43,082 nt of DNA, from positions 69,472 through 112,553 of the IMG/VR virus record IMGVR_UViG_3300031420_000496; one strand, written 5' to 3'. The translations under genes were made by a program, and so were the position numbers. Positions 12,048 through 36,079 of this stretch are shown here, one piece after another (within the stretch, counting starts at the first letter, position 1; every line of letters begins with the position of its first letter). The stretch comes from a virus. Taxonomy: Duplodnaviria > Heunggongvirae > Uroviricota > Caudoviricetes. Under the pieces are notes generated by a model that did not search any database, had not been told where the DNA came from, and was given only the letters and a program-made list of their open reading frames with translations.

Positions 12048-13457
12048 TTACAGTTTGAACTTCTTGATCTTAGCCATCTTGTACTTGGCTTCTTTGAAAT
12101 ACTTGACGCGTTCGCGGAAGTGTTTCTTCGACCATTTCAACTTGGAGTGTACATCAACACAGACGACGCTGTCTTTGTCATGACCCTTGCGGAGTGAACG
12201 GCCAACGGTTTGAATTGCACGAATGAACGATTTACCAGCATCGATCATGAACAGGCAGAAGATACGGTCGATCGAAATACCGGTGGATGCAATGCCGAAG
12301 GTTGCGATGACGATCATGTCGTCTCGTTCTTCAAACATCGAGTACCATTCAGCACGGACATCGGAGTCGTCAGCACCGTACAGGAACACAGAGTTCTTGA
12401 TACGCTTCTGCAGTGCTTGACCTTGCTTGATCGAGTTGACGAGAACAAACGTATTGCCATGCTGTTCAGCCTTCGCGATGATGAGGTCAGCCAGGAAGTC
12501 GAGACGTTCAGGCGACTTTGCCAGGTAGGCCTTCTCGCTCTGGTAGTCCGGGAATTCTTCCTCAACGTCCTCTTCGGTTTCGACTGGTTCGATTTCCAGC
12601 TCAGCGACGTAACCCATCTCCATCAGTTCGGCAGCGGTGATGGCGTACAGCTCTTCGCCGATGCAGCCCTTGAGAGTCGTCTGGTCGATCAGTGGTTTCG
12701 GCAGAGTGCCGGTGAAGCCGTAACGGTAGGCGATGTCTTTGCCGTGCACGTTGATGAGTTCACCAACGACCTTGGCTTTTGCACCGTGCGCTTCGTCGAC
12801 GATGACGCACTGGAAATCTTTCATAACAGCAGGATTGTTCTGCAGTGCTTGCCAGGTTGCAACGACCACCATGTGATACAGGTCTTTGCTTTCGCCCGAG
12901 TACGTACCAACATCAAGCGCTGCAAGGCGGAACGTGGCGACGGTTTGTTTCACCAAGTCATCGGACGGAACGATGACGATTGTGCGGAGTTCGTTCTCCG
13001 ACATGACGTCGGACAGAGCTGCAACCATCCAGGTTTTGCCTGACGCGGTGGCAGCGACAACGAAACCTGAACCAGCATCCAGGCAGGCATTGACTGCATC
13101 AACCTGGTACGGGCGCATCGTTACTTTCAGCTCCATGCCTTCTTTGCCGATGAAGCGATCTGCGTCGATGCGGGTTTTGATAACAGGAACTGGTTTGCGC
13201 AAGTCTTGCAGGTTGACTTCATAACCCCAGCCGTCGATGAACGGCAGGATGTCAGGCAGCAAGCGGGTGTAAACCTTGCCGCTCGGTTCGAAGAACTTGA
13301 CCTTGCCGTCCCAACGGCCGAGTTTGTAAAGCGGCATGAAGAATGCGCCTTCAACCATCAGGGCGAATTTCTTCATCAGGAATTCGTGGTCCTGTGGTTC
13401 GAGTCCAGTGACGTGACAATGGACTTCGTCACGTACGGTAATGTTGCATGTCTTCAT
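12048..13457 (-). CDS. uvsW: SF2 DNA helicase, UvsW-like
   Basis: MRPYQ, AATASGKT, IVDEAH, GFTGT, QTVGRSLR; in a cluster with UvsX and UvsY. Confidence 0.9.
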   Translation of the reverse strand: MKTCNITVRDEVHCHVTGLEPQDHEFLMKKFALMVEGAFFMPLYKLGRWDGKVKFFEPSGKVYTRLLPDILPFIDGWGYEVNLQDLRKPVPVIKTRIDADRFIGKEGMELKVTMRPYQVDAVNACLDAGSGFVVAATASGKTWMVAALSDVMSENELRTIVIVPSDDLVKQTVATFRLAALDVGTYSGESKDLYHMVVVATWQALQNNPAVMKDFQCVIVDEAHGAKAKVVGELINVHGKDIAYRYGFTGTLPKPLIDQTTLKGCIGEELYAITAAELMEMGYVAELEIEPVETEEDVEEEFPDYQSEKAYLAKSPERLDFLADLIIAKAEQHGNTFVLVNSIKQGQALQKRIKNSVFLYGADDSDVRAEWYSMFEERDDMIVIATFGIASTGISIDRIFCLFMIDAGKSFIRAIQTVGRSLRKGHDKDSVVCVDVHSKLKWSKKHFRERVKYFKEAKYKMAKIKKFKL

Positions 13458-13696
13458 GGCTTTTCCAAAAGTTCAGCTTGTCGTAGTTTCTTCATGCGCT
13501 CGCCAAGTGCGTTGATGTCAGAAGTGTCGGCATCAGACAATGGGATACGAATCACGAGTTCGATGAAGAATTGCTTGCTCATGGTGATGCGCGTAGTCAT
13601 GTTGTGCGAGTACTGAACGTCAGCGTCGACTTTGATGTCGCGAACTTCGATCGCTGTTGGCTGACGCCCTGTCGGTTGGCGAGACGTGATTTTCAT
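13454..13696 (-). CDS. hypothetical protein
   Basis: 4-nt overlaps with both neighbours. Confidence 0.55.
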   Translation of the reverse strand: MKITSRQPTGRQPTAIEVRDIKVDADVQYSHNMTTRITMSKQFFIELVIRIPLSDADTSDINALGERMKKLRQAELLEKP

Positions 13697-14010
13697 GAGT
13701 AAGTGAAGTGACGTTCGAGGTTGTGTTTCTTGACGTAGGCCAGCGCGTTGAGACTGCGACCACTGCCGCTCACCATCGTGATGGAAAGCATCAGGAGTTT
13801 CGTCAGCTCACTGTTCGAAATACTTGCCTCCGGGGAAAGAGTCATTGTAACAGGACGACCGTTCTCGTCGCGACCTGACATAGTGATCGGAGGCAAGTCT
13901 TCAACCATCGGCGAAGACTGCAGCATGCCGTATGCGTCGATTGAAATGTTGCCGTTGATGTTACCACTGATGATCGCACCACCGTTCGAGATTGTGTATG
14001 TGTTTGGCAT
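13693..14010 (-). CDS. hypothetical protein
   Basis: overlaps with both neighbours. Confidence 0.55.
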   Translation of the reverse strand: MPNTYTISNGGAIISGNINGNISIDAYGMLQSSPMVEDLPPITMSGRDENGRPVTMTLSPEASISNSELTKLLMLSITMVSGSGRSLNALAYVKKHNLERHFTYS

Positions 14011-14471
14011 TATAGAGTTGCTTCCTGTAGCTCTGCTACTCGGAGTTTAGTTACGTGGCCCAACATCCAGCCCATCTGTTTGAATGCTTCAACGATTTCG
14101 TTGAGTTGGGAATACAGAAGACTTGCTTCAATGATTAGCTGATTCAGCTCGACGATGTCTCGTTCGCCGTTGATAAACGTCTGGGCTTCACGTTGACCCA
14201 GTGCACGTTGGCCCTGGGCATAGTTCTTCGTGAAACGTGCTTCGAGCTTTGCCTTGTAGTTTTCCAACCACTTCACAACGTGCTTCATTTCGTTTGCACG
14301 TTGTGCGTAGGAAACTTGATGCTGCGCCAGGTTCCGAGCAATCAGCTCCAGGCGCATGCCATCGAGTTCGAACAGTGGTTCGGCGTTTTTTACGTGGGTC
14401 TCATAACGCTCGAAGATCGCAGGCAGCTGGTCAGCTAGCTTGTCTTCATCGAGGGTGAAGAGGAAACTCAC
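14010..14471 (-). CDS. uvsY: recombination mediator, UvsY-like
   Basis: helical ~150 aa with FINGERDI...IVEAFKQMGWML pattern; context. Confidence 0.7.
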   Translation of the reverse strand: MSFLFTLDEDKLADQLPAIFERYETHVKNAEPLFELDGMRLELIARNLAQHQVSYAQRANEMKHVVKWLENYKAKLEARFTKNYAQGQRALGQREAQTFINGERDIVELNQLIIEASLLYSQLNEIVEAFKQMGWMLGHVTKLRVAELQEATL

Positions 14472-14920
14472 TCGTCATCCCCGTCAAAATCGAGGTCGCC
14501 CTCGTCATCGTCCAGCATTTCGATGTCTTGGACGGTACCGCGTTCGATCAGGTCTTCCATCTTTGCAGCTTCGATGATTTGCTTGGATGCACTTTCTGCG
14601 CTGTCCTGATCCGGAGCGTCAACGATGAATTCGATGTTGATTGCAAATGTTGCCATTGTTGTTACCTTAAGTTGAGATGAGATGAGAAATTCACCGCTTC
14701 GATAATCGAAGTCGATGCTTCGGCCAGCAGTGAGAGTGACGGTGGAGATGTCTGCTACGATGAGCGGAATAGTTGCTATTATACAATCAAATTCGGTCTT
14801 TTCCGAATTTAAAATAAGATCAACGTGTGAGCCGCCTCCAACGCTGGCTTGAATGCGAAATGCCTTGCCATCATCTAAGAGCGTGAGAATCTTAGCTCTG
14901 GCACAGAGAGAAACGTTCAT
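14468..14920 (-). CDS. degenerate HesB/IscA-like domain in frame with an acidic peptide (second start possible at 14656)
   Basis: SLCARAKILTLL..FRIQASVGGG..DL.L...VAD..TV.L.AG.SIDFD pattern; RBS-like AAGGT before 14656. Confidence 0.4.
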   Translation of the reverse strand: MNVSLCARAKILTLLDDGKAFRIQASVGGGSHVDLILNSEKTEFDCIIATIPLIVADISTVTLTAGRSIDFDYRSGEFLISSQLKVTTMATFAINIEFIVDAPDQDSAESASKQIIEAAKMEDLIERGTVQDIEMLDDDEGDLDFDGDDE

Positions 14921-25101: not shown

Positions 25102-26655
25102 TCAAACTAGGAAAGGAACTGCCTCATCTCCGTATTGGTCATTGTCATCAGGTGCAATGTATTCATTGACCTGTTGGAAAGCCTCTTCATTGTACTCAGC
25201 CAAACGCTTCAGCAGGCGTGTTACAATGATCGTTGCCATAACAGCATCGTCAGTTGCACCAGGCTTTGCTTCGTACGTTCCGCCCTTCGCCACGAAGTTT
25301 TTCAGTTCTTCGAGCAGGATTGCCGACTTGATATTGAGTCCGCCACTGACTTTTTCGACCAGTGATTTGAGCTGCAGGCACGCAACGATCTTCTTCTTGC
25401 CTGTAGTGTAGACGCCCAGCTTGGCAGTCTGCGGTTCATCGCAGTACAGCTCAGCATGCTCTGGCTGACGCTCGTCGTTTGCATACAGCACAGACAGCGC
25501 TTCGCCAATACCGTTTCGTTCGAACGTCCAGATAACCTCAGCACGTCCTCGGCCAACCGGCATTGACAGAAGATTCAGCATCCACTTCAGCTTCGCGTAA
25601 AGCAGGGGAATGTTGACTTCGTTGCTTCGCCATTCCGCAACTTGGTTGAGCGATGGGAACTCGAATACTTCGATGACGGAATAGTCTTTGCCGGTACCAG
25701 TTGCCGGGTCGACCCCGACCAAGTACGTCTTGCCTGCACCACCGACTTCTTCATCAGGCACCCAGAACTTGAAGCCCATGTCTTCGTGGTGAGGTGCAGA
25801 CTCAGTGATCTGAATCAACTTCAGCGAGTTGATCAGCAACGCATCGGACGACAGGAACTCGCATCCAACCTCTTGACGGGTTGCAAGCAATCCAAGCTGC
25901 GATACCATCGTATCCCAGTATTTGTCGTCGCGCTTCGGGTGTTCTTGCCAGTACACGCGGAACGGTGCATAGCCGTTTGCACCAGGCTTTCCATCACCAG
26001 CACTCGATGCACCGCGCCACAGGGATGCGAAGAGTTCCGTGTCGCCGTTTGGCGTTGACGAAATGATAGCCGAACCACCAGTCGAAAGTGTTGGTGTCAG
26101 CGAGTTCCAGAGTTCCTGCTGAATGCGTGGGTTAATGAACGCCAACTCGTCGAGGTAAATCTTCGTGATAGCGAGACCACGACCGGTCTTTTCAGTGGTC
26201 GCTTCCGAAACGATACGCGAGCCATTGTCGAATTCGATGTTGTGGCGGTTGTAATACTTCAGCCCGCACTTGATCCAGTTCGGAAGATTCTCATAAGCGA
26301 AGCGAACGCGGCTTGCAATTTCAAGTGCGTGGCTCTGATTCTTCGATGCAATCAGCAGAAGCGCATCGGCATTAAACATCGCGTACCAAAGCAGGTACAT
26401 TGCGACGGTAAGAGTTTTACCGCACTGGCGAGGCTGGAGCGTAATCGTGAATCGATTATCCTGCATGTGGCGAATGAATCGTTCCTGATAATCGTACAGG
26501 TCGAATGCGACGTTACCTTGAACCGGGTCTTGAACGCGAATGTAGTTTCTAATAAAGTAGACTGGATCTTTCTTGCATCGGGCAAGTTCCATAATCATTT
26601 CCGGCGTATATTCATCCGTCGCATTCGCGCGTTTTAGTTGGGGATTTTTACTCAT
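25102..26655 (-). CDS. terL: terminase large subunit, T4 gp17-like
   Basis: LYDYQ, PRQCGKT Walker A, YLDELAF Walker B, SSTPNG, GVDPATG, TDDAVMA. Confidence 0.95.
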   Translation of the reverse strand: MSKNPQLKRANATDEYTPEMIMELARCKKDPVYFIRNYIRVQDPVQGNVAFDLYDYQERFIRHMQDNRFTITLQPRQCGKTLTVAMYLLWYAMFNADALLLIASKNQSHALEIASRVRFAYENLPNWIKCGLKYYNRHNIEFDNGSRIVSEATTEKTGRGLAITKIYLDELAFINPRIQQELWNSLTPTLSTGGSAIISSTPNGDTELFASLWRGASSAGDGKPGANGYAPFRVYWQEHPKRDDKYWDTMVSQLGLLATRQEVGCEFLSSDALLINSLKLIQITESAPHHEDMGFKFWVPDEEVGGAGKTYLVGVDPATGTGKDYSVIEVFEFPSLNQVAEWRSNEVNIPLLYAKLKWMLNLLSMPVGRGRAEVIWTFERNGIGEALSVLYANDERQPEHAELYCDEPQTAKLGVYTTGKKKIVACLQLKSLVEKVSGGLNIKSAILLEELKNFVAKGGTYEAKPGATDDAVMATIIVTRLLKRLAEYNEEAFQQVNEYIAPDDNDQYGDEAVPFLV

Positions 26656-27250
26656 ATATTGGCTCTACATTTTCTTCTGAGAATATGAAGTCGCGGATGG
26701 TGTTAACTGTGCGGTCGCTCATCAGCACTTCAAAGTGTGTTGCATTGATTTCAACTCGTTCTCCGAAGCACAAGCCACGCTGGCTTGAAATGGTTACGAC
26801 ACCGTCATTCGGGACAGGTGAAGTCTGGAGACTACCGCCGGTTGAAATAATGTTGAGGGTTGGAATATCCAACGCGAGTTCGCGGCAGCGCGTGATGTGC
26901 GGCGCGGTTGGTATGATGTCGTGCAGAACGCGCGAGCATCCAGGAATCCAGCGGAGCGTAGACGCTGCGTGTGATCCTTTGAATGGGGTAGAAATCAAAA
27001 TCAGGCGCTCAACCATGTTCGGCATTTGAGCCGCAACAAGGGTGGCAATGATGCCACCCAGTGAGTGCGCAACCAACGTTACCTTCTGATCCCGCGGAAG
27101 TTTTGAAATCACTTCAGCAATCGAAGTCTCAAGACTTTGATGACTGTTGTAATCAATCCGGTATGCCTTATGCTCAGGCAGTTTCGAGATGATGTAACTG
27201 AACGAAGTGGAACTCGAGTTTAACCCATGAATATATGCAATGTGTTTCAT
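26648..27250 (-). CDS. alpha/beta hydrolase (lipase/esterase-like)
   Basis: YIHGLNSS, AHSLGG nucleophile elbow, STPFKGS, NDGVVT, HFEV. Confidence 0.85.
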   Translation of the reverse strand: MKHIAYIHGLNSSSTSFSYIISKLPEHKAYRIDYNSHQSLETSIAEVISKLPRDQKVTLVAHSLGGIIATLVAAQMPNMVERLILISTPFKGSHAASTLRWIPGCSRVLHDIIPTAPHITRCRELALDIPTLNIISTGGSLQTSPVPNDGVVTISSQRGLCFGERVEINATHFEVLMSDRTVNTIRDFIFSEENVEPIYE

Positions 27251-27270: not shown

Positions 27271-27399
27271 TTAGTCTTTCTTTTTGTTCGGTGCTTTAGG
27301 CTTGATGATTCCTGCCCAATGCATGAACTTGTTTCCGAGATAGGTAGTTGCCGCAGTAGCTGCAGCAGCGGCAATTACCTTGCCGATCAAACGAAGCAT
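27271..27399 (-). CDS. 42-aa amphipathic peptide
   Basis: read by hand: MLRLIGKVIAAAAATAATTYLGNKFMHWAG...; TAATG overlap. Confidence 0.5.
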   Translation of the reverse strand: MLRLIGKVIAAAAATAATTYLGNKFMHWAGIIKPKAPNKKKD

Positions 27400-27773
27400 T
27401 ACTCGCTCTTGAAGTCGTCATCCAGAACGATCTTTTGATCCTTGACAGTGACAGTTGGTTGGTCACGTTCTTCGATCAGACGATTCGCTTTGGCTTTCGC
27501 AGCGTCAGCTTTTGCTTGAGCCGCGAATTTCAGATCAGCAGCTTTCACCTGTGCAGCAGCTTTTGCTTGCGATGCCTTGGCTTGTGCTGCAGCTTTCATG
27601 TCAGCCGCCTTGACAGCTGCGTCGGCTTTGATCTGAACTGCTTTCTCTTTACCTTCGCGGATGCGGGTCTTGAGTGGCTTGCGCTCAAGAGCTTCATTCA
27701 CGACTTTGGTAACGTACGCGGTTGCAACTGCACCGATAACGCTCACAAAGATTTTCTTAAACATTGGTCCCAT
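27399..27773 (-). CDS. Ala/Lys-rich coiled protein with hydrophobic N-terminal helix
   Basis: two ~22-aa repeats starting VKAADMK and VKAADLK. Confidence 0.65.
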   Translation of the reverse strand: MGPMFKKIFVSVIGAVATAYVTKVVNEALERKPLKTRIREGKEKAVQIKADAAVKAADMKAAAQAKASQAKAAAQVKAADLKFAAQAKADAAKAKANRLIEERDQPTVTVKDQKIVLDDDFKSE

Positions 27774-27811: not shown

Positions 27812-28375
27812 CTAGTCTAACATTTGGTTTTCGTCGAGCTTCGCGAGTTCCTTCTTGAACTCGTAGGCAAACCCTTCATTCCAGCGTTTAATCACTGGCG
27901 TCTTCGGTTTGTCGAACGTCCACTGCGGAATGCGATAAGCGGTAGCACCAGGATTCGACAGAAGCAGGCGAACATTCTTTGCCGCAGTTTTCGCTGCAGC
28001 CTGTACGCGCTTCGTACCTTCCTTGCCGATACCGATTTCTTTCATTCGCTTGGATAGCTTGGTCAGCACGACCAAGTTTCTTACCGTGTTATATAGCTCG
28101 TTGAACCAACGACCTCCACCAAAACCGGTCAGTGGCCCTCGACCCCAACCGCCCGTGCTATTTGTTGGCGGATTACCGACGTCTGGAGCTTGTACTGGTT
28201 CGCCAGTAATATCGCCCGATCCACCAGTGCTATCACCAACCGAAGGCGGTGCACCTTCGCCTCCACCACCTTCACCTTCCTCAACCAAGAGCATCGGCAA
28301 GATGCTTTCGTAGATGGCCAGACGTTTGCCTTCCAACAATGCAACAGGCGGGTTCAAGAGTTCATCCAGCTTCAT
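27812..28375 (-). CDS. late Gly-rich protein, possible head cargo
   Basis: begins MKLDELLN...LLE; late promoter upstream. Confidence 0.65.
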   Translation of the reverse strand: MKLDELLNPPVALLEGKRLAIYESILPMLLVEEGEGGGGEGAPPSVGDSTGGSGDITGEPVQAPDVGNPPTNSTGGWGRGPLTGFGGGRWFNELYNTVRNLVVLTKLSKRMKEIGIGKEGTKRVQAAAKTAAKNVRLLLSNPGATAYRIPQWTFDKPKTPVIKRWNEGFAYEFKKELAKLDENQMLD

Positions 28376-28396
28376 TTGTTTTCCTTGGTGAGTTTC

Positions 28397-28404
28397 TATT
28401 TATG
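28397..28404 (-). promoter_or_regulatory. late promoter
   Basis: CATAAATA. Confidence 0.75.
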
Positions 28405-28405
28405 G

Positions 28406-29143
28406 TTACGAACGGAACCATCCTTGGGCTTTTTTCTGCAGGTCAGCTTTTTCAAACACTGACGGCACCAGGTATGCTTCTTTGTTTTCGCGCAAGTGTT
28501 CCAGCGTGCGAACACCAACTGGGTTATCGACTGGCTCTGCATAGAATCCGGAAACCTGTTTGTAGATTTTCTGGATTGCTTCGTCGTCCAATTCGCCTGG
28601 ATTGTTCGAGACTTCCCGGAAGAAACTGAACTTGCCCTTGAAGTATTCCTTGTTGATTTCCGATTCTTCGTGAACCTTCTTGATGAAGTCTTCGTCAACG
28701 TGGCGATTGATTTTCTCCCCGCGTTCTTTTGCGCGAGCGATTGCTACGTCTAGGTTGACGTTGACGAATACCATACCAACGTCGTAGCCACAGGATTCCA
28801 GAAGACCGGCACGAGCCAGGATGTTCGACGCATCGTTCGATGTTCCGTCGACAAACAGCGGCAGCATCGAGTTCAGATAGTTGAACAACGATTCACTGGT
28901 CATTGGCTTGGTGCGATCGCGGAAGAACGATTTCCAGGTTTCCGAGTTCGAAACGATCTTGTACTTCTTCGACAGAAACTCAGTCGATCGGTCAGTGTTG
29001 ACGACGCGGGGTGAAATAGCTCCGTGCAGTTTCGAAACCGTATAGGATTTACCTGCGCCAGGGATACCCACGACGAAGAGTGCTTTGAGAATGCCCTTGT
29101 CGTTAATCGACTCGGTCATCATGTATTCTTTGAATGTAATCAT
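28406..29143 (-). CDS. P-loop kinase of the zeta-toxin/AAA_33 type with a capsid-targeting-like N-terminus
   Basis: MITFKEYMMTE; VGIPGAGKS, VNTD, FVDGT, GYDVGMVFV...AIARAKER. Confidence 0.78.
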   Translation of the reverse strand: MITFKEYMMTESINDKGILKALFVVGIPGAGKSYTVSKLHGAISPRVVNTDRSTEFLSKKYKIVSNSETWKSFFRDRTKPMTSESLFNYLNSMLPLFVDGTSNDASNILARAGLLESCGYDVGMVFVNVNLDVAIARAKERGEKINRHVDEDFIKKVHEESEINKEYFKGKFSFFREVSNNPGELDDEAIQKIYKQVSGFYAEPVDNPVGVRTLEHLRENKEAYLVPSVFEKADLQKKAQGWFRS

Positions 29144-29775
29144 CAGTAAATGTCCAGTGCTACGCGAATTGATTCTTCTGCCGAGATTGGGAATGCGTAA
29201 TACGCTTCGCAGGCAATCATGATTTCTTTCTCGTCCTTGATTGCAGCGTCAAGTTGTGAATCGGTATATGCTGACGTTTCCAATTTGTATTGGAGTGTAT
29301 GAACTGCATCCAGGTCATCCATATCAGCTTCGTCATCCATCAAATTGTAAAGGTCGCGCACACGTGCGGACCAAACGTATTTGAAGTCGCCAATTGGAAA
29401 GACCACGCACGGATCGCCATATTGATTCAGATAATGCTTTCGAATGCCTTGGCCGAAAACAAAAAGTGCTTGCGATCGAGCCCTAATTCCGAATTCTTTT
29501 TCGAACCAGTCATCAATTATTTTGTGCGCATCTCTGTTTGTATCCTTCGGCCTACGATCTGTGCGTACGGCTTTGCGCCAGTACAGAATTTCTTTACCTT
29601 CGTTGATTGGGTCGGATACTTTTCCAGTTTCATTACCTGGTCCAATGTTTCTAACACCGCGGAATAACAAACCACGGTGCCTGGACTTTTCAAGGAACGG
29701 CTTGCAGTCGCGTTTAATCAATTCCGCGAGGTCTTTTATTTCTTGTTCAGTAATGAACTGTTTGAACGTAATCAT
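29143..29775 (-). CDS. paralogue A of the cargo family, ART-like
   Basis: MITFKQFITE; LFRG, RSQALF, YGDPCVVFP, EKEIMI. Confidence 0.75.
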   Translation of the reverse strand: MITFKQFITEQEIKDLAELIKRDCKPFLEKSRHRGLLFRGVRNIGPGNETGKVSDPINEGKEILYWRKAVRTDRRPKDTNRDAHKIIDDWFEKEFGIRARSQALFVFGQGIRKHYLNQYGDPCVVFPIGDFKYVWSARVRDLYNLMDDEADMDDLDAVHTLQYKLETSAYTDSQLDAAIKDEKEIMIACEAYYAFPISAEESIRVALDIY

Positions 29776-30665
29776 TCGTCGTCTTCGTCGTCTTCGTCGT
29801 CTTCGTTACCATTATCGAGTTCTATTACGGCCTGTTTGAACTCGTCGTGGAAGCGGTATGGTACAGACAGGTATTTACCGGAGAACCACACCTCGCGTTG
29901 GTTACCAGGCAAATCAAGTTGATCGGACGTTACCAGCTTCACGCCCATTGCTTCAGGTGAAAGCTTCTCTGGCATTTGAGTTGCGACGCGCTGCAGTATC
30001 CTTGCGTACGCTGAATCTTCTCTTTCCAATTCAGCGAACTTATCGGCCAGTTCATCGTTGCCATTTGCCTCTGGATCGAACTTGCCATTTTTAGTGAACA
30101 CGTGCTTGATTTGTTTGAGCTGCTGCATTGGGTCGCCCATACCATTTTCGTATTCGGTGTTACGGAAAACAACGTACGCCTGTGCAATCTGTTCGATCAA
30201 GTCATCGAGCTGCATATACGGCTTGCCATCAAACCCGCGTGCGATGTTCATCGTGTTCAGGTCTTCTTCAGGCAGCACAGCAATCTTCACGCCATCGAAT
30301 GGATAGATCATCAGCAGATTGGACCCATCATCTGAAACGCTGTCGACGACAAATTCTCTTGTAGTTGAGCAGAAGATCGATTGACGACGTGGCGGGTATT
30401 CTTCCCAACCAGGTAGCGAAAACAGGAATGCCTGTTGCGCTGCAGAACCACCACGTGATTCTGAACGACGTGTGCGTGGTACACGTGTTTTGAGTTTGTG
30501 ATTGGCGTTGCTCATCCATGACTCGCCACTCAGTCGATACAATGGCTTCATGAGATTTTTGAAACGTTTACAGTGTTTCAGATATTCAGCCGCAGCCTCC
30601 ATCACGGACGCGTGCTCTTTGTCTGTCTCTTCTTCCTCGTGGAGAAATTGTTTGAATGTAATCAT
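29772..30665 (-). CDS. paralogue B of the cargo family, ART-like
   Basis: MITFKQFLHE; LYRL, RRQSIFCSTT, IYPFDG, QREVWFSG. Confidence 0.75.
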   Translation of the reverse strand: MITFKQFLHEEEETDKEHASVMEAAAEYLKHCKRFKNLMKPLYRLSGESWMSNANHKLKTRVPRTRRSESRGGSAAQQAFLFSLPGWEEYPPRRQSIFCSTTREFVVDSVSDDGSNLLMIYPFDGVKIAVLPEEDLNTMNIARGFDGKPYMQLDDLIEQIAQAYVVFRNTEYENGMGDPMQQLKQIKHVFTKNGKFDPEANGNDELADKFAELEREDSAYARILQRVATQMPEKLSPEAMGVKLVTSDQLDLPGNQREVWFSGKYLSVPYRFHDEFKQAVIELDNGNEDDEDDEDDE

Positions 30666-31438
30666 TAGTCGTCCTCTGGCGCCAGTTCGTCATCGTGGTC
30701 GTCTTGCTTCATTTTCTCCCACATTGTTCTTTCAATGGCGATGCATTTACCGCCAATCCACAATTCGCGATCGCCTGAGTAATCGTCAATTGTTTTTGTT
30801 GTTGCTAAGTGCAGGTCGAGGGTTTGCGGGCTGTATGCTTTCCTCAAGACACGTTCGACGTTTTCTGGAGAACCGAAAATGTCTCGTAGCATGCGAGCTG
30901 TTCGCTCAGCGTTCGGTGAAACACCGCCTTCCATCTTTGTCTTGATACTCTCGACAAATTGTTCGTACGATGCAGGCGAAAGTCCATACTCGTCCCAGAC
31001 TTTGTTCCAGCTCTGAATGCGCATCTCATCACCAGCATTACCAACCGTAAACTCAGGCGTGTACCAAAGGTCATCGCTGGAGCAAACACCAATTGGCACG
31101 CCATCGTATGGGAAGATGGCGTACACTCGACCGAAACCACGAGCCGTGTCGAGGTTGTTCGCCAGGATAATCGATTCGCTTCGTTTCGGATAACCGAATG
31201 CTGGGAGGAAATGATCCATGACAACAGTGTAATAATTTTGCGTGTTAGCTGATCTACGCTTCGATGCTTCGCCGTGCAGGGCAAATGCGTCACCATCAGG
31301 TGTCATACCGCGATACAGCTGACGACGATTTTTCAATGCATCGCGGCAATGTGTGTTGATCAGCTTGACTGCTTCATCGACGGTGATAACCTGCTTGTGC
31401 GCACCGGCTTCAGCCAAAAATTGTTTGAACGTTATCAC
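30665..31438 (-). CDS. paralogue C of the cargo family, ART-like
   Basis: MITFKQFLAE; LYRG, PKRSESII, GFGRVYAIFPYDG, DRELWIGG. Confidence 0.75.
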   Translation of the reverse strand: MITFKQFLAEAGAHKQVITVDEAVKLINTHCRDALKNRRQLYRGMTPDGDAFALHGEASKRRSANTQNYYTVVMDHFLPAFGYPKRSESIILANNLDTARGFGRVYAIFPYDGVPIGVCSSDDLWYTPEFTVGNAGDEMRIQSWNKVWDEYGLSPASYEQFVESIKTKMEGGVSPNAERTARMLRDIFGSPENVERVLRKAYSPQTLDLHLATTKTIDDYSGDRELWIGGKCIAIERTMWEKMKQDDHDDELAPEDD

Positions 31439-32244
31439 AGTCCCAATTCCTCTCGTATTTCATCCAGTATATTTTCCGGGATCATTACGCATTTTCCGGA
31501 GAACCACATTTCACACGAGCCTTTGTCCGGGTCTGGTATGTCATCTGGCGTTGTTAATTTGCAATCAAGTTGTTTGTAGCTATATGCCTTTGGCAAAGAG
31601 GCAACAAACCGCTTGACGATTTCTTCATCTGAAATCTTCGACCGATTCACACCATAAAGGTATCCATTACGGTGGAGACGATTCGCAACTGTTGCTGGGT
31701 GTTCGCTTTTAATTGCCGAAATCATATCAGCCAGTGACTTGATGTCCGAACTCTTGAGAAGCATATCACCAATCAACTCTTCCCAGAAATCGTTCAGGTC
31801 AGCAATCGAATCGCCTGCTGAAAACAAAACATCAAAGTCAATACGCAGGTCCCAGAAGTCGTCACTATCTACCAAACCAATCTTCACATCGTCAAATGGG
31901 AAACAATAAAGAATCGGGCCACTTGCGTAGTTTTCAGCTTTATACCTGTTGTTGGTAGTAATGAATGATTTGCTTCGCTTTGGAAACTCATCGTTCAGCG
32001 GGTTGGTATCTAGAAATATCGTGTAGAAATTCGATGTGTTCTGCGACTTACGTTCACCTGATCCAGGATTATATACGCCAGCAGGCAAGGTCGAACGAGA
32101 ACCGCGATAGATGAAATTCCCAGCCTGTGCAGAACGAAGTGCCTGCAAGCAATGGCGATCGAGCAACTCAACCAGGTCGTGAGTCGCCGCTGGCTCGTGA
32201 TCGTATGACTTCACTTTTGCTTCGAGGAATTGTTTGAATCTCAT
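31435..32244 (-). CDS. paralogue D of the cargo family, ART-like
   Basis: MRFKQFLE; IYRG, PKRSKSFITT, YCFPFDD, SCEMWFSG. Confidence 0.75.
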   Translation of the reverse strand: MRFKQFLEAKVKSYDHEPAATHDLVELLDRHCLQALRSAQAGNFIYRGSRSTLPAGVYNPGSGERKSQNTSNFYTIFLDTNPLNDEFPKRSKSFITTNNRYKAENYASGPILYCFPFDDVKIGLVDSDDFWDLRIDFDVLFSAGDSIADLNDFWEELIGDMLLKSSDIKSLADMISAIKSEHPATVANRLHRNGYLYGVNRSKISDEEIVKRFVASLPKAYSYKQLDCKLTTPDDIPDPDKGSCEMWFSGKCVMIPENILDEIREELGL

Positions 32245-32999
32245 TTCTGTGCGAGTCCCATTTCAATCATCATTTCATCCCACACATCCTGGCTGATTGC
32301 GATGCAGGGTCCGCCAATCCATAGCTCGTGACTTCCGCGAATTTTGTCGATGTTGGCCGAGTTGGTCAGTTCAAGTCCGAGATTTTCTGGGCTGTACGCC
32401 TGCTCGAATACGGAACTGATCTTTTCAATAGGTCCGAACCATTCCAACAAGTTATGGCTTTCCTCAGAATCTCCCTGCATTTTCTCTTCAAGCGAGTCTT
32501 TGAATTCTTCCCAGCTATCAGGAGATAAACCATTGCGACGATAGAAACTATTCCAGGATTCAATGCTGCGTTTATCCGGGCATTTACCAATTTTGAATGA
32601 CGGTGTTTCCCAAAGGTCATAGCTTTGGCAAACACCAATTGATACGTCGTCATACGGGAAGATTGCATAGCGCGCACCGAACCCGCGTGTATAATCTTTG
32701 TTCTCGTTGTTTGCGCAGATGATTGACTTCGAACGTTTTGGGTATCCGAAATACGGGAGGAATTTATCCATAATCACGGTGTAGTAATTGCTGGTATTCG
32801 CAGACGTACGACCGCCCGCTTCACCGTGAATAATCATTGCATCAGAACCTGATGTCATGCCACGCCAGATTGGGCGATGGAAAAGCTTCATTGCATCCTT
32901 GCAATGTTCGTTCAACATCTTTTCGACATCGCGCGCTGGGATAGACTTCTTGTATCTGGCTGCTTCTTCCTCTGCAAGGAGAAATTCCTTAAACCTCAT
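32241..32999 (-). CDS. paralogue E of the cargo family, ART-like
   Basis: MRFKEFLLAE; IWRG, PKRSKSII, GFGARYAIFPYD, SHELWIGG. Confidence 0.75.
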   Translation of the reverse strand: MRFKEFLLAEEEAARYKKSIPARDVEKMLNEHCKDAMKLFHRPIWRGMTSGSDAMIIHGEAGGRTSANTSNYYTVIMDKFLPYFGYPKRSKSIICANNENKDYTRGFGARYAIFPYDDVSIGVCQSYDLWETPSFKIGKCPDKRSIESWNSFYRRNGLSPDSWEEFKDSLEEKMQGDSEESHNLLEWFGPIEKISSVFEQAYSPENLGLELTNSANIDKIRGSHELWIGGPCIAISQDVWDEMMIEMGLAQK

Positions 33000-33481
33000 T
33001 TGATTTCCTTTACCTCGGCATCAACTGAAATCATGCGCATGATTTCTTCACGTGATGCAACCACGACATTGTTCTGCGTTTTGTTTGCGTACGGGACGAA
33101 AGCAGAATTACGCTTGCGGTCACCCTTGACTTTCGCCTTGGTTGCAACTGCGTTGAGCGCGATCGTCAGATAAGTTGCAGCAACTTCGGCATTGCGAGCT
33201 GCATAACGCGGCTCGATGATCTGCGTGTATTCAGTCTGCTGCTGGAAAGTTTCCAGCGCGACATCATAGACTTGATCGAGCTTGGCGTCGATTTCTTTAT
33301 CCTCGTCGTCCTTTTCTTCCGAACGTGGAGGTTCAGCCATCTCGGCAAGTTCGCCTTCGGTGATCTGGTCGTACTCTTCGATTCCGCCTTCAATCTTTTC
33401 TTCTTCAGGCTGGTGTTGCGGTTCCGTGTTGAACAGCTCGTCGAGCGGATTCAGGATTGGGTTTTCAGATTTCTGTTTCAT
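32996..33481 (-). CDS. probable terminase small subunit
   Basis: EPRYAARNAEVAATYLTIAL resembles the PRAYEV helix of T4-like gp16; C-terminal NNVVVASREEI. Confidence 0.5.
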   Translation of the reverse strand: MKQKSENPILNPLDELFNTEPQHQPEEEKIEGGIEEYDQITEGELAEMAEPPRSEEKDDEDKEIDAKLDQVYDVALETFQQQTEYTQIIEPRYAARNAEVAATYLTIALNAVATKAKVKGDRKRNSAFVPYANKTQNNVVVASREEIMRMISVDAEVKEIK

Positions 33482-34190
33482 GGTCAGCTCCAAGTTTTTC
33501 CAGCATTGATTCGAATAAATCTCTTTCGATAGCGATGCATTTGCCGCCAATCCAGAGCTCGTGTTCTTGATCAGCCTGATTGTATTTTTGTGCGGTTGCA
33601 GTAGTTGCCAGATCGAAAGGCACGCTATACTCTTGCTTGAGATATTCTGCTAGATGGTCTTTGTGATCTTCAATTCCCCACAGGTCCCTGCGTTCAAGTA
33701 GCGTTTGGAAGTCTTCAACAAGGTGTGCAAATGAATCGTCACGAATGTCGTTGTTCTCGTAAAAATCATTCCAGCGGTGAATGCGTTGTACGCGATCGCC
33801 GAGTTTAACTTCGCTGTAAAACATATCGCGTTCTGGGCAGATACCAATCTTCACGCCATCAAATGGAATGATGACATGCATTTTGCCGTATCCGTATGTG
33901 TAGTCGCGATTCTCCCAATTCGCGCAGATAATCGATGCACTTCGTTTAGGATAATCTGGCAATGCTTCATCGAGAATAACGGTATAGTGGTTTGTCGTAT
34001 TCGCAGATTTGCGACCACCAGCTTCACCGTGGATAATACCGAAACCATTTTTCATTTTGGTCATGCCACGCACAATAGGTGTGTTGATACTTTTCAACGC
34101 ATCCTTGCAATTGGCTTTTATCAACGCGATGATTTCGTCTTCAGTGTCGATGTCGGTCTTGTATTGACCAGCGATTTCGTATAGCTTCAT
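33465..34190 (-). CDS. paralogue F of the cargo family, ART-like
   Basis: MKLYEI; IVRG, PKRSASII, GYGKMHVIIPFDG, EHELWIGG. Confidence 0.75.
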   Translation of the reverse strand: MKLYEIAGQYKTDIDTEDEIIALIKANCKDALKSINTPIVRGMTKMKNGFGIIHGEAGGRKSANTTNHYTVILDEALPDYPKRSASIICANWENRDYTYGYGKMHVIIPFDGVKIGICPERDMFYSEVKLGDRVQRIHRWNDFYENNDIRDDSFAHLVEDFQTLLERRDLWGIEDHKDHLAEYLKQEYSVPFDLATTATAQKYNQADQEHELWIGGKCIAIERDLFESMLEKLGADHETEI

Positions 34191-34675
34191 AGAGGTGTTC
34201 GTGCTCCGGCTTTCGCGGCAGAGGTTTTGTAAATTGTTTTCTCGGTGACAACACGGAATGTTGCGCCCTGGGATTCAGCGAAGATCGAAGCGGCTTTCCA
34301 CTTCGCCTGGTTCACTGCGTACATCATCTTGTCGCGTTCGGTCATACCAGGCGTCAGCACTGATTCGCGATACGGTTTGACCTCGATGATTTCCTTCTTG
34401 ATATTGCCAGCTGCATCGCGGTAGAGCATGATGAAGTCTGGAAAATACCGAGAAACTTTCGGTCGACCGTTCACATCCACCTTGACTGGGTTGACGTATG
34501 GGATCGCGAGTTCTTCTGAACCCCAACGAAGCACGGCTGGATTCGAATCCATCCACTTCATGAACGTCAGTTCCCAGCTTGAGCGGAACATGATGTTGTT
34601 TGAATTGCCAACATATTTCTGTGGGTTCTTTGGCAAGAACCGACCATGCATCGTTCGTTTTGTTCCTGTTGCCAT
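34187..34675 (-). CDS. head completion nuclease, T4 gp4-like
   Basis: FLPKNPQKYVG, RSSWE, WGSEELAIPY, YFPDF, EVKP, NQAKWKAA. Confidence 0.9.
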   Translation of the reverse strand: MATGTKRTMHGRFLPKNPQKYVGNSNNIMFRSSWELTFMKWMDSNPAVLRWGSEELAIPYVNPVKVDVNGRPKVSRYFPDFIMLYRDAAGNIKKEIIEVKPYRESVLTPGMTERDKMMYAVNQAKWKAASIFAESQGATFRVVTEKTIYKTSAAKAGARTPL

Positions 34676-34684
34676 GACGCGTCC

Positions 34685-36079
34685 TTACTTAAGAATAGTG
34701 TTGCGACCCAGATAAGTGTTGGAACCCCAGGTCCAGCTACCGTCTGGATAATACGTTGTCACACCTTCAACATCAGCACGACCGCCGACAGCTGAGTCCA
34801 TAACGGACGTTGAGCCGGATGCACTTTCCATAGGACTTGTAGCTTCACTTGGTGCTTTGATGACGTTCATGTTGGAGAAGGCTGCACCTGCCTGATTGAC
34901 AATGCTTGTGCTGATGTTTCGGCTTGCAGCTCCGACGAGGCCGCCAACGATGTTCGATGCGTGGCTGCTAATCAACGACGCGAATTGTCCTTTACCAGCG
35001 ATTGACTGCACAGCGCGATTGATGGCTGACGATGTGATCTGTTGGCCTGCGCGACCGATTGAATTCGAAATGATGCTGCCGAATATACCGCCTGCACCTT
35101 GCGGATTCGTTGCACCGCCACCAGCAGGCGAGACGTCGACTGGCGCACCATGAACACCTGGTGTTGCTACGTTGTAGCTTGGGCCGTCCGGCTTGGACAG
35201 TGGACCAGTGTTGACGATTTCCATCCAGTCATAGTCGAACTGCATCGTGATCAGGTTGGCATCCGAACCTTCATGTGACAGGTCATCAAGGTCGAATGAC
35301 ACGAGCCTAGCATTCATGAAGTCGAAAATCGTTTCCTCAACCGCATTGCCGATGACAGAACCTGGGTTCACGTAAATCTGTTTGACGCGGACAGTTTGAA
35401 TTGCGTTACCAACATTCGAGTTGATCGTTCCGCGAATAGCCGTGTCGTTCGCTTGCTCAGGCAATTGCGAGAAGTTCATACCGTTACCTTCCCGGATCGA
35501 CATCGCGTCAGGTGGCGCAAGGCGACCAGCTTCGGAACCAGCGTTCTGGCGGAGCATTTGTCGACGCGTAATAGGCGAGTGCAGCATCATGAGGATGCGG
35601 AAGAAGTCCAGCACGCGGTTGCCGGTGTCGTCCATGAAGGTCATCGTGAGTTCGCGGTGGCGAATCTTCTTCAGTGCCTTCGTCCGGAAGTTGTACATGT
35701 TGACGTCGTCTTCATACTCGAAGTCGATCTTCGGGCGGTCAACGGATTTGACCATGAACGTGAAGTCCTGGCTGTTCTGTCGTGCCAGCTCTGGTGCAGC
35801 AGCCTTTGCTTCTTCAGTGAATACAAATTCGACCTTGAAGAGGAACTTCAGCTTTGGGCGGAAGCTGGTTCCACCAGCAAGAGCCGCAGCGTATGATGAC
35901 GAATAGAAAGACCCATCGTTTCGATTGGTAGTAGCGGTCGAATCAGATGCAGAAATGCCTAACGCAGGACCCAATGTTCCTCGAGTAAATTCTTCAACCG
36001 CAGCACCGAACTTTTCAGAAGCCTGACGTTCCAGCGCAATCTTGGTGCCATTTAGAATTGGTGTTAACTGGTTTGGCAT
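34685..36079 (-). CDS. tube-fold baseplate or tube-initiator protein (gp54/gp48-like)
   Basis: RPKLKFLFKVEF, VKSVDRPKI, LTMTFMDD, ITMQFDYD resemble the gp19 fold; late promoter upstream. Confidence 0.65.
   Translation of the reverse strand: MPNQLTPILNGTKIALERQASEKFGAAVEEFTRGTLGPALGISASDSTATTNRNDGSFYSSSYAAALAGGTSFRPKLKFLFKVEFVFTEEAKAAAPELARQNSQDFTFMVKSVDRPKIDFEYEDDVNMYNFRTKALKKIRHRELTMTFMDDTGNRVLDFFRILMMLHSPITRRQMLRQNAGSEAGRLAPPDAMSIREGNGMNFSQLPEQANDTAIRGTINSNVGNAIQTVRVKQIYVNPGSVIGNAVEETIFDFMNARLVSFDLDDLSHEGSDANLITMQFDYDWMEIVNTGPLSKPDGPSYNVATPGVHGAPVDVSPAGGGATNPQGAGGIFGSIISNSIGRAGQQITSSAINRAVQSIAGKGQFASLISSHASNIVGGLVGAASRNISTSIVNQAGAAFSNMNVIKAPSEATSPMESASGSTSVMDSAVGGRADVEGVTTYYPDGSWTWGSNTYLGRNTILK

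What the first reader, a model, noticed from the sequence alone, without database searches (positions are those of the whole stretch)
27812..34190. Operon of proteins with T4-like capsid-targeting leaders: a candidate injected-cargo locus
Seen in the sequence: six consecutive genes start MITFKEYMMTE, MITFKQFITE, MITFKQFLHE, MITFKQFLAE, MRFKQFLE and MRFKEFLLAE, and two flanking genes start MKLDELLN and MKLYEI. From 28406 to 34675 every gene overlaps the next, mostly by 1-4 nt. Established: T4 internal proteins IPII and IPIII carry the 10-residue leader MKTYQEFIAE, which directs them into the prohead and is removed by the prohead protease after Glu. Inference: the block encodes enzymes packaged in the head and delivered with the DNA, placed among packaging genes (terL, terS, gp4). 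The leader would also be a usable tag for finding other cargo.
Basis: partly seen in the sequence, partly recalled or inferred. Interest (0 to 1): 0.8.

Follow-up and report, generated by a model that had tools for sequence, protein, structure and literature searches.

The report
Capsid-targeting leaders on jumbo-phage enzyme array
An uncultivated giant bacteriophage puts a ten-residue tag, very like phage T4's capsid-loading signal, on a row of enzyme-like proteins whose relatives in a cultured phage are found in virus particles, so they are probably loaded into the head; this extends a known T4 trick to a new phage group and new cargo.

Summary
Six consecutive minus-strand genes (28406-32999) begin MITFK[EQ][FY]..E or MRFK[EQ]FL..E, and the two flanking genes begin MKLDELLN and MKLYEI.

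Five of the six, plus 33465-34190, are paralogues of one uncharacterised family. It has no Pfam match, only a weak likeness to the ADP-ribosyltransferase (ART) fold, and conserved Arg, Ser and Glu. The sixth is an unrelated Zeta-toxin/AAA_33 P-loop kinase.

- The kinase family carries the same leader in 113 of 120 metagenomic homologues; 0 of 128 other genes of this contig do.
- The leader matches the mapped T4 capsid-targeting sequence: aromatic residues at positions 4 and 7, then [L/I]-x-E at 8-10.
- In Agrobacterium phage Atu_ph07 the homologous array (gp53-gp65, gp408) has its own leader version, M[RK]WxQLxE. By exact mass match, every member is in the published virion proteome.
- The two multidomain members there run at fragment sizes.

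Most likely these are prohead-targeted, protease-trimmed head proteins. Cleavage, head location and injection are untested. The head protease is not on this 31%-complete contig, and the "terS" label is unsupported.

This is a new member of a known kind. The scan has already reported similar leaders in other uncultured T4-like and huge phages.

The parts
28406..29143 (-). Leader (MITFKEYMMTE) plus a P-loop kinase of the Zeta_toxin/AAA_33 group. The Walker A motif GIPGAGKS is present.
   Evidence: Pfam Zeta_toxin 38.8 bits (cut-off 22.3) and AAA_33 33.4 bits (cut-off 27), with the domain starting at residue 20. The closest solved relative by sequence is L-seryl-tRNA(Sec) kinase, E 8.5e-4. Of 120 metagenomic homologues at 54-89% identity, 113 carry the leader motif. 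The kinase is fused behind an ART-like domain in Atu_ph07 gp53 and in the phrog_12810 profile.
29143..29775 (-). Leader (MITFKQFITE) plus a divergent member of the ART-like family (phrog_11975 subtype). The conserved Arg and Glu are kept.
   Evidence: phrog_11975 E 2.4e-29. It matches the family HMM at E 6.9e-8. The motif columns are kept. Its subtype relative Atu_ph07 gp408 is in the virion proteome.
29772..30665 (-). Leader (MITFKQFLHE) plus an ART-like paralogue with an acidic C-terminal tail.
   Evidence: Family HMM E 1.5e-48. The Arg, Ser and Glu motif columns are kept.
30665..31438 (-). Leader ((M)ITFKQFLAE, GTG start overlapping the upstream TGA stop) plus an ART-like paralogue.
   Evidence: Family HMM E 9.6e-100. 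It is the best match in the whole contig to T4's MKTYQEFIAE. Start context.
31435..32244 (-). Leader (MRFKQFLE, one residue shorter, with Phe-Leu-Glu in place of L/I-x-E) plus an ART-like paralogue.
   Evidence: Family HMM E 7.1e-62. Motif columns kept.
32241..32999 (-). Leader (MRFKEFLLAE) plus an ART-like paralogue. This is the protein that was modelled.
32996..33550 (-). Acidic protein of 161-184 aa without the leader.
   Evidence: It matches no PHROG and no Pfam family above threshold. A gene with a very similar N-terminal stretch holds the same place, just after the gp4-like gene, in locus L011. That likeness was judged by eye and was not scored.
33465..34190 (-). ART-like paralogue with a short leader (MKLYE, L-x-E at residues 3-5).
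   Evidence: Family HMM E 3.1e-87. Its subfamily starts M-K-L-x-E-[IL] in many homologues.
27812..28375 (-). Gly-rich 187-aa protein starting MKLDELLN. It is a conserved neighbour just downstream of the kinase and a candidate further cargo protein.
   Evidence: It is 43% identical (E 1e-40) to the gene that follows the kinase in L011, which starts MKVNELFEE. It matches no PHROG or Pfam family.
34187..34675 (-). T4 gp4-type head-completion protein. This is context, not cargo.
   Evidence: phrog_218 'head closure' E 1.2e-44. Pfam Tn7_TnsA-like_N E 6.2e-20.
25102..26655 (-). Large terminase subunit. This is context.
   Evidence: tblastn gives 47% identity to RsoM2USA, 44% to XacN1 and 41% to Atu_ph07 TerL.

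Best explanation
The block is a late structural operon of a roughly 375-kb jumbo phage related to RsoM2USA, XacN1 and Atu_ph07. Each protein begins with a short propeptide of the T4 capsid-targeting type.

Proposed mechanism, by analogy with T4:
1. The two aromatic residues (positions 4 and 7, or 3 and 6 in the MRFK form) dock the protein onto the scaffolding core while the prohead assembles.
2. A gp21-family prohead protease then cuts after the Glu of [L/I]-x-E and frees the mature protein inside the head.
3. The protein probably leaves the head with the DNA at infection.

The cargo is an expandable set of enzymes. It comprises six or seven paralogues of an uncharacterised family with an ART-like fold and conserved Arg/Ser/Glu, one P-loop kinase, and possibly the Gly-rich protein at 27812-28375.

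Shown here: the leader and its motif; its presence on unrelated folds; its genome-specific versions.
Shown in print plus a mass match made here: presence of the homologues in Atu_ph07 virions.
Inferred: docking to the core, cleavage after Glu, location inside the head, ejection, and ART activity.
For: 1. Leader anatomy. F4 and F7 followed by L/I-x-E at residues 8-10 match the T4 IPIII mapping, in which residues 4 and 7 serve targeting and residues 8 and 10 serve processing, and gp21 cuts after L/I-X-E (PMC9026906). T4 ipII and ipIII were checked as MKTYQEFIAE. Array leaders are the contig's best matches to that peptide.
2. Modularity. The same leader precedes the Zeta/AAA_33 kinase and the ART-like family. 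It is present in 113 of 120 kinase homologues and 51 of 79 ART-like homologues, and [LI]-x-E is present in 75 of 79 of the latter. It is almost never found inside these proteins: 0 hits in 26,853 positions and 4 in 18,454.
3. Other proteins with no match to either family HMM carry it in relatives. L010 has proteins of 140 and 108 aa. RsoM2USA ORF256 and ORF258 have it too, though these two were not screened against the HMMs. The kinase of the T4-like phage Melnitz starts MKTFAELQE.
4. Each genome has its own version, shared across its cargo genes. Atu_ph07 has M[RK]WxQLxE ten times, with synonymous codon differences. In L010, MNFEEFLL heads both the kinase and an ART-like neighbour.
5. Virion presence. 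The computed masses of the 13 Atu_ph07 array proteins equal gp53-gp65 of the published ESI-MS/MS table to within 0.01 kDa. All were detected, with 3-31 unique peptides each. The tenth leader-bearing gene, at a distant locus, is gp408 and was also detected.
6. Hints of processing in the same table. gp53 (87 kDa) consists of an ART-like domain, the kinase and two repeats. Its two junctions before the repeats read L-[TN]-E-L-F-D-T, and it peaks in gel slice 9, where proteins of 18-24 kDa peak. gp63 (41 kDa) has an I-T-E junction exactly where paralogues carry the leader, and it peaks in slice 8 with the 25-31 kDa proteins.
7. Protease. gp21-family proteases (PF03420) score above the cut-off in Atu_ph07 and RsoM2USA. 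One also appears to share a 143,631-bp contig with the kinase and an ART-like gene, judged by equal contig lengths.
8. Setting. The array lies in one overlapping operon between the gp4-type head-completion gene and TerL. The same order is seen in L011.
Against: - There are no data for this phage itself: no proteome and no N-terminal peptides.
- The contig holds no protease above threshold. It has only a 144-aa ORF, with PF03420 E 0.004 and phrog_207 E 9.4e-10.
- Two of the six leaders depart from L/I-x-E: M-T-E in the kinase and F-L-E at 31435-32244.
- The Atu_ph07 virions were only partly purified (PEG and differential centrifugation). The list also holds a few replication enzymes, mostly known from a single peptide.
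- The Atu_ph07 authors thought this cluster might build the phage's whiskers, so a place inside the head is not established.
- The slice-size argument for cleavage is indirect.
- The cargo proteins are acidic (pI about 5), unlike the basic T4 internal proteins.
- The AlphaFold2 model places residues 3-16 in a helix, so the leader could be partly structural.
Confidence: 0.65

Rival explanations
1. The proteins are virion-associated but not inside the head. They would build or decorate an external structure, such as the whiskers or fibres of these 'hairy' jumbo phages. The shared N-terminus would then be an assembly or attachment peptide, not a core-targeting propeptide.
For: The Atu_ph07 authors link the CDS 31-76 cluster to unique structural features such as whiskers. 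Mass spectrometry of whole virions cannot tell head from tail. The window operon continues into tail tube and sheath genes.
Against: - The family keeps polar residues (Arg, Ser, Asn, Thr, Asp, Glu) in an enzyme-like pattern and has an ART-like fold.
- One member is a P-loop kinase.
- The leader reproduces the T4 targeting and cleavage determinants.
- The multidomain members run at fragment sizes.
- T4-like phages such as Melnitz carry the leader-kinase as well; whether they have whiskers was not checked here.
Confidence: 0.13
2. The shared N-terminus is inherited by gene duplication and is simply the first helix of the fold. Alternatively it is a by-product of translational coupling between overlapping genes. 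Either way it has no sorting role.
For: Five of the six genes are paralogues. The model places residues 3-16 in a helix. The genes overlap by 1-4 nt.
Against: - The same decapeptide heads an unrelated kinase fold and several small proteins that match neither family HMM.
- It persists in homologues that are only 27-40% identical overall.
- The codons differ synonymously.
- It changes in step across the different cargo genes of one genome.
- It aligns with inter-domain junctions in fused forms.
Confidence: 0.1
3. The leader is a recognition tag for some other machinery, such as a modifying enzyme (as proposed for a shared tag in RB43-like phages), a chaperone, or a degradation or timing signal.
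Against: The 112-kb contig has no radical-SAM gene, and the control genomes all gave matches. No conserved candidate modifying enzyme accompanies the array in L010, L011, RsoM2USA or Atu_ph07. The tagged proteins are in virions.
Confidence: 0.05

Closest known systems
[quoted passage not shown]
   Same: Both are N-terminal peptides of about 10 residues on otherwise unrelated proteins. Both have aromatic residues at positions 4 and 7 and L/I-x-E at 8-10 (MITFKQFLAE against MKTYQEFIAE). The genes lie among late head genes. T4 likewise packages an ADP-ribosyltransferase (Alt). T4-related phages are already known to carry varied proteins with CTS-like sequences.
   Different: The host phage is a group-2.2-type jumbo phage, far from T4. 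The cargo proteins are 24-34 kDa acidic enzyme-like proteins in arrays of 6-13 paralogues, not small basic proteins. No sequence similarity to Alt was found (hhalign probability 0.2). Relatives hold fused multidomain forms with leader-like junctions. Cleavage and ejection are untested here.
Paralogous head and ejection-protein families of phiKZ-like giant phages (phiKZ inner-body proteins; SPN3US paralogue families A and B), processed by a gp21-like protease (PMC5694885)
   Same: These too are large, variable paralogue families in giant-phage heads. Their protease also cuts after Glu in a short motif, and the propeptides are thought to target proteins to the prohead.
   Different: Their propeptides are mostly longer than 100 residues and the cleavage motif is S/A-x-E. 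The families are unrelated in sequence to those here, and the phage lineage is different.
Phage-delivered polyvalent proteins and MuF-fused toxins (the Aravind-group concept, cited in PMC7824862)
   Same: Several enzymatic domains, including ART and GNAT domains, are delivered in the virion together with the DNA. Atu_ph07 gp53 (ART-like, kinase and two repeats) and gp63 (weak GNAT-like plus ART-like) resemble small polyvalent proteins.
   Different: Here the modules are mostly separate genes, each with its own leader. There is no MuF or portal-associated carrier domain.
ADP-ribosyltransferase superfamily (SCOP d.166.1: BC2332-like, Arr, diphtheria-toxin group, PARP, Tpt1/KptA, DarT)

Membership tests
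T4-type CTS-tagged head-internal proteins | A short (about 10-19 residue) N-terminal peptide shared by otherwise unrelated proteins of one phage | tested here: met
   The same leader sits on the Zeta/AAA_33 kinase and on the ART-like family. In relatives it also sits on small proteins that match neither family HMM.
T4-type CTS-tagged head-internal proteins | Targeting determinants at leader positions 4 and 7 (Tyr4 and Phe7 in IPIII) | tested here: met
   F4 with F7 or Y7 in the four MITFK leaders, and F3 with F6 in the two MRFK leaders. The mapping is taken from PMC9026906. The match is in sequence only; function was not tested.
T4-type CTS-tagged head-internal proteins | The leader ends in the gp21 cleavage motif L/I-x-E | tested here: met
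   ITE, LHE, LAE and LAE in four of the six leaders, with MTE and FLE in the other two. The motif is present in 75 of 79 ART-like homologues, and [LIMV]-x-E in 118 of 120 kinase homologues, against 6% of background genes.
T4-type CTS-tagged head-internal proteins | A gp21-family (Peptidase_S77) prohead protease is encoded by the same phage | tested here: inconclusive
   The own contig is 31% complete and gives only PF03420 E 0.004 (12.8 bits, cut-off 27) on a 144-aa ORF, with phrog_207 E 9.4e-10. Relatives score above the cut-off: RsoM2USA E 2.5e-30 and Atu_ph07 E 2.4e-22.
T4-type CTS-tagged head-internal proteins | The protein is present in purified virions or heads | not testable with these tools
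   No data exist for this phage. The homologues Atu_ph07 gp53-gp65 and gp408 are all in the published virion ESI-MS/MS list, identified by exact mass match. Head versus tail is not resolved.
T4-type CTS-tagged head-internal proteins | The leader is removed in the mature virion, and the protein is ejected with the DNA | not testable with these tools
   There is only indirect evidence. Atu_ph07 gp53 (87 kDa) and gp63 (41 kDa) peak in gel slices typical of proteins of about 20 and about 30 kDa.
ADP-ribosyltransferase superfamily | The ART fold (split beta-sheet core) | tested here: inconclusive
ADP-ribosyltransferase superfamily | An active-site triad (R-S-E or H-Y-E) at the canonical strands | tested here: inconclusive
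   R46, S90/S92 and E225 are conserved in all seven window paralogues. They lie at strands in the expected order. There is no [QE]-x-E motif, and the residues were not superposed on a known ART site.
T4 Alt/ModA/ModB ADP-ribosyltransferases | Detectable sequence homology to Alt | tested here: not met
   hhalign of the family profile against T4 Alt gave probability 0.2 and E 0.25. No Alt or Mod protein appears among the BFVD structural matches.
Zeta_toxin / AAA_33 P-loop kinases | A Pfam match above the gathering score, plus a Walker A motif | tested here: met
   For 28406-29143, Zeta_toxin scores 38.8 bits (cut-off 22.3) and AAA_33 scores 33.4 bits (cut-off 27). GIPGAGKS is visible in the translation. 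The substrate is unknown.

The most novel reading that the evidence does not exclude
One CTS-type tag, conserved from T4-like marine myophages (the Melnitz kinase starts MKTFAELQE) to 350-490-kb jumbo phages, loads a rapidly diversifying set of NAD+-using ART-like enzymes and a conserved kinase into the head. In fused forms the same tag sequence also serves as the inter-domain cleavage site, so that polyproteins such as Atu_ph07 gp53 are cut into separate effectors inside the capsid. The ART-like family would be a new clade of injected host-takeover or anti-defence enzymes.
Probability: 0.3. Interest if true: 0.75.

Novelty: new member of a known kind. Interest (0 to 1): 0.55.

Why it matters
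Most genes of huge phages have no known function, and almost nothing is known about what these phages inject along with their DNA. If the reading holds, a ten-residue tag ending in L/I-x-E would allow head-packaged cargo to be predicted from sequence alone in uncultivated jumbo phages.

It points to three candidates for first-minute host-takeover or counter-defence enzymes. One is an unannotated family with weak ART-fold likeness that has expanded to 6-13 copies per genome. The second is a highly conserved kinase. The third is a repeat module.

The idea is cheap to test in two cultured relatives, Atu_ph07 and RsoM2USA. The same tag could also be used to load foreign proteins into jumbo-phage heads, as was done with T4.

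Tried and rejected
- Megablast of the block against 50,697 phage records: no match.
- Foldseek of the ART-like model against the PDB: nothing at E <= 0.001.
- Foldseek against BFVD: only uncharacterised family members from Atu_ph07 and uncultured phages (several rows had no name on hand), and no Alt or Mod protein.
- Profile search of the family against PDB sequences: only a chance-level CdvA hit.
- Pfam scan of all 74 family members at E <= 1: no recurrent family.
- hhalign against T4 Alt: no similarity.
- Pfam gp23 model on the own contig: the controls did not match either, so this is uninformative.
- Finding this phage's own protease from the RsoM2USA protease. None of the 120 listed hits (of 1,793) lies on a contig of 375,534 bp, so the question stays open.
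- T4 late-promoter consensus TATAAATA: 0 matches in the window.
- Sigma-70 promoter and terminator scans: no more sites than in shuffled sequence.
- Radical-SAM partner, to test the modifying-enzyme rival: none in the contig.
- RsoM2USA proteomics covered only 10 gel bands and does not include ORF254-256, ORF258 or ORF403-405.
- The 'terS' label for 32996-33550 could not be supported by any profile.
- No complex prediction was run. The scaffold partner is unknown, and no binding claim is made.

Full report
**What is there.** The window comes from a 112.5-kb record that CheckV rates as 31% complete. Its proteins recur on a contig of about 375 kb. The large terminase (25102-26655) is closest to the jumbo phages RsoM2USA (47% identity), XacN1 and Atu_ph07.

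On the minus strand a tightly overlapping operon runs in this order:
- a tail-tube-like gene (34685-36079) and a gp4-type head-completion gene (34187-34675);
- 33465-34190 (starts MKLYEI);
- an acidic protein without a leader (32996-33550);
- six genes that start MRFKEFLLAE, MRFKQFLE, (M)ITFKQFLAE, MITFKQFLHE, MITFKQFITE and MITFKEYMMTE;
- a Gly-rich protein (27812-28375, starts MKLDELLN);
- two small genes, then TerL.

One of the six genes uses a GTG start that overlaps the upstream TGA stop.

**Is it more than chance?**
- A strict leader regex over every candidate start in the 112-kb contig finds only these six genes.
- The composite motif occurs in 0 of 128 other approximate genes. [LI]-x-E near the N-terminus occurs in 6% of them.
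- Three of the four best matches in the contig to T4's MKTYQEFIAE are array genes.
- T4 ipII and ipIII were confirmed to start with that peptide.

**What the proteins are.** Five of the six, plus 33465-34190, belong to one family. It corresponds to the N-terminal part of phrog_12810 and to phrog_11975, and a family HMM scores them between E 1e-102 and E 7e-8.
- The family has no Pfam match, even when all 74 aligned members are scanned.
- No profile similarity to T4 Alt was found.
- S66, P87, R89, P115, E225 and W227 are invariant, and R46, R64, S90 and S92 nearly so. All seven window paralogues keep these residues.
- A confident AlphaFold2 model (pLDDT 94.6) finds nothing in the PDB with Foldseek.

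These scores are weak. I therefore call the family ART-like, probably enzymatic, and unproven.

The sixth gene (28406-29143) is a Zeta_toxin/AAA_33 P-loop kinase scoring above the Pfam cut-offs. Its closest solved relative by sequence is seryl-tRNA(Sec) kinase.

**Why the leader is a module and not a family trait.**
- The kinase family is far better conserved than the ART-like family (54-89% identity), yet 113 of 120 homologues begin with the same motif.
- Its Pfam domain starts only at residue 20.
- A 392-kb relative (L010) has the variant MNFEEFLL on both the kinase and the adjacent ART-like gene. Two small proteins there, which match neither family HMM, start MKFKDFLTE and MKFTDFLNE.
- In RsoM2USA four consecutive genes next to TerL start MTTFKEYLLE, MNQTFKQFLTE, MKFSDYILE and MRLKQFLME.
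- Atu_ph07 uses M[RK]WxQLxE ten times, with synonymous codon differences.
- The kinase of the T4-like phage Melnitz starts MKTFAELQE.

So each genome has its own version, shared across its different cargo genes. That is what co-evolution with one common receptor would produce, although gene conversion between leaders is not excluded.

**Fit to the T4 mechanism.** In IPIII the first ten residues suffice for packaging. Targeting depends mainly on residues 4 and 7, processing depends on residues 8 and 10, and gp21 cuts after L/I-X-E (PMC9026906). The window leaders have F4, F7 or Y7, and ITE, LHE or LAE at residues 8-10. The kinase (MTE) and 31435-32244 (FLE) deviate.

A shorter class, M-K-L-x-E-[IL], has L-x-E at residues 3-5 and recalls Alt's short propeptide (MELITE...). 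It heads these genes:
- 33465-34190;
- 27812-28375;
- two genes elsewhere in the contig, at C1:1029-1595 and C1:17366-18022.

**Experimental support from a relative.** The 13 genes of the Atu_ph07 array have computed masses that match gp53-gp65 of the published virion ESI-MS/MS table to within 0.01 kDa. All 13 were detected, with 3-31 unique peptides each. The only other gene in that genome with the exact leader pattern, together with its upstream neighbour, corresponds to gp408 and gp407. Both were also detected. The authors did not comment on the leader and suggested that the cluster might build novel structures such as whiskers.

Two details of that table point to processing.
- gp53 (87 kDa) has an ART-like domain, the kinase and two repeats. 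Its two junctions before the repeats read L-[TN]-E-L-F-D-T, and it peaks in the gel slice where 18-24 kDa proteins peak.
- gp63 (41 kDa) has a weak GNAT-like domain, an I-T-E junction exactly where paralogues carry the leader, and an ART-like domain. It peaks with the 25-31 kDa proteins.

The stand-alone protein at C1:1029-1595 (starts MKLDELLNE) is homologous to both gp53 repeats. Its leader lines up by eye with those junctions.

**Protease.** gp21-family proteases score above the cut-off in Atu_ph07 and RsoM2USA. The window's contig has only a 144-aa sub-threshold ORF. This phage's own protease was not seen, which is no surprise for a record that is 31% complete.

**Rivals.** An external structural role (whiskers) is the main one. 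The enzyme-like conservation, the kinase, the T4-type determinants and the presence of the leader-kinase in T4-like phages all argue against it, though whether those phages lack whiskers was not checked. Simple paralogy or a structural first helix fails to explain the unrelated folds and the genome-specific co-variation. A tag for a modifying enzyme lacks any conserved partner, and the contig holds no radical-SAM gene.

**Novelty.** The T4 capsid-targeting sequence and CTS-like internal proteins in T4 relatives are textbook material. I found no paper in the held library that describes such leaders in the Atu_ph07/RsoM2USA group. Earlier reports of this scan describe similar leaders in other uncultured T4-like and huge phages, and another first-stage note flagged the R-S-E signature on this same stretch. 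The new elements here are the tie to a published virion proteome, the conserved leader-kinase, and the leader-like junctions in fused forms. My verdict is a new member of a known kind, of moderate interest.

Noticed in passing
G000 C1:1029-1595 (+) and C1:17366-18022 (-), outside the window (locus L013): Two more proteins of the same genome start MKLDELLNE and MKLTDLVVQE. The first is homologous to both C-terminal repeats of the Atu_ph07 virion protein gp53 (E 3e-5 and 0.004). They are candidate further cargo with the short leader class.
   Followed up: partly
G000 C1:47002-47436 (-) (L001:1342-1776): A 144-aa ORF matches 'head maturation protease' phrog_207 (E 9.4e-10) and is sub-threshold for Peptidase_S77 (E 0.004). 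It is too short for a full gp21. It may be a truncated protease paralogue of the kind described for SPN3US.
   Followed up: partly
window 26648-27250 (-): An alpha/beta-hydrolase (esterase/lipase-like, GHSLGG motif) gene overlaps the start of TerL by 8 nt, where a small terminase might be expected.
   Followed up: partly
window 27399-27773 (-): A 124-aa basic protein (pI 9.8) has a hydrophobic N-terminal segment and Lys/Ala-rich repeats. A small protein with a similar hydrophobic start holds the same place in L011.
   Followed up: no
window 34685-36079 (-): A 464-aa protein has a tail-tube-like N-terminal region (phrog_4542, E 5e-12) and a long Gly/Ser/Ala-rich C-terminal extension.
   Followed up: no
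L010 12553-13950, 15647-16726 and 18748-19485 (392-kb ENA contig): In a relative, the leader-bearing array lies within a few kb of NAMPT (NAD+ salvage), RNA ligase and SIR2 genes. This NAD+-centred neighbourhood fits an NAD+-using role for the ART-like cargo.
   Followed up: no
L011 7829-8431 and 9197-9991; TerL at 12279-14596: In a 162-kb relative, genes with faint NUMOD3 (homing-endonuclease-type) matches interrupt the cargo array, and TerL is called as two genes.
   Followed up: no
L015 4001-4669 (Melnitz) and L014 3992-4654 (HTVC008M): The T4-like marine myophages Melnitz and HTVC008M encode the same kinase family, with the short leaders MKTFAELQE and MIPFILKE. The leader-kinase pairing therefore predates the jumbo lineage.
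   Followed up: partly
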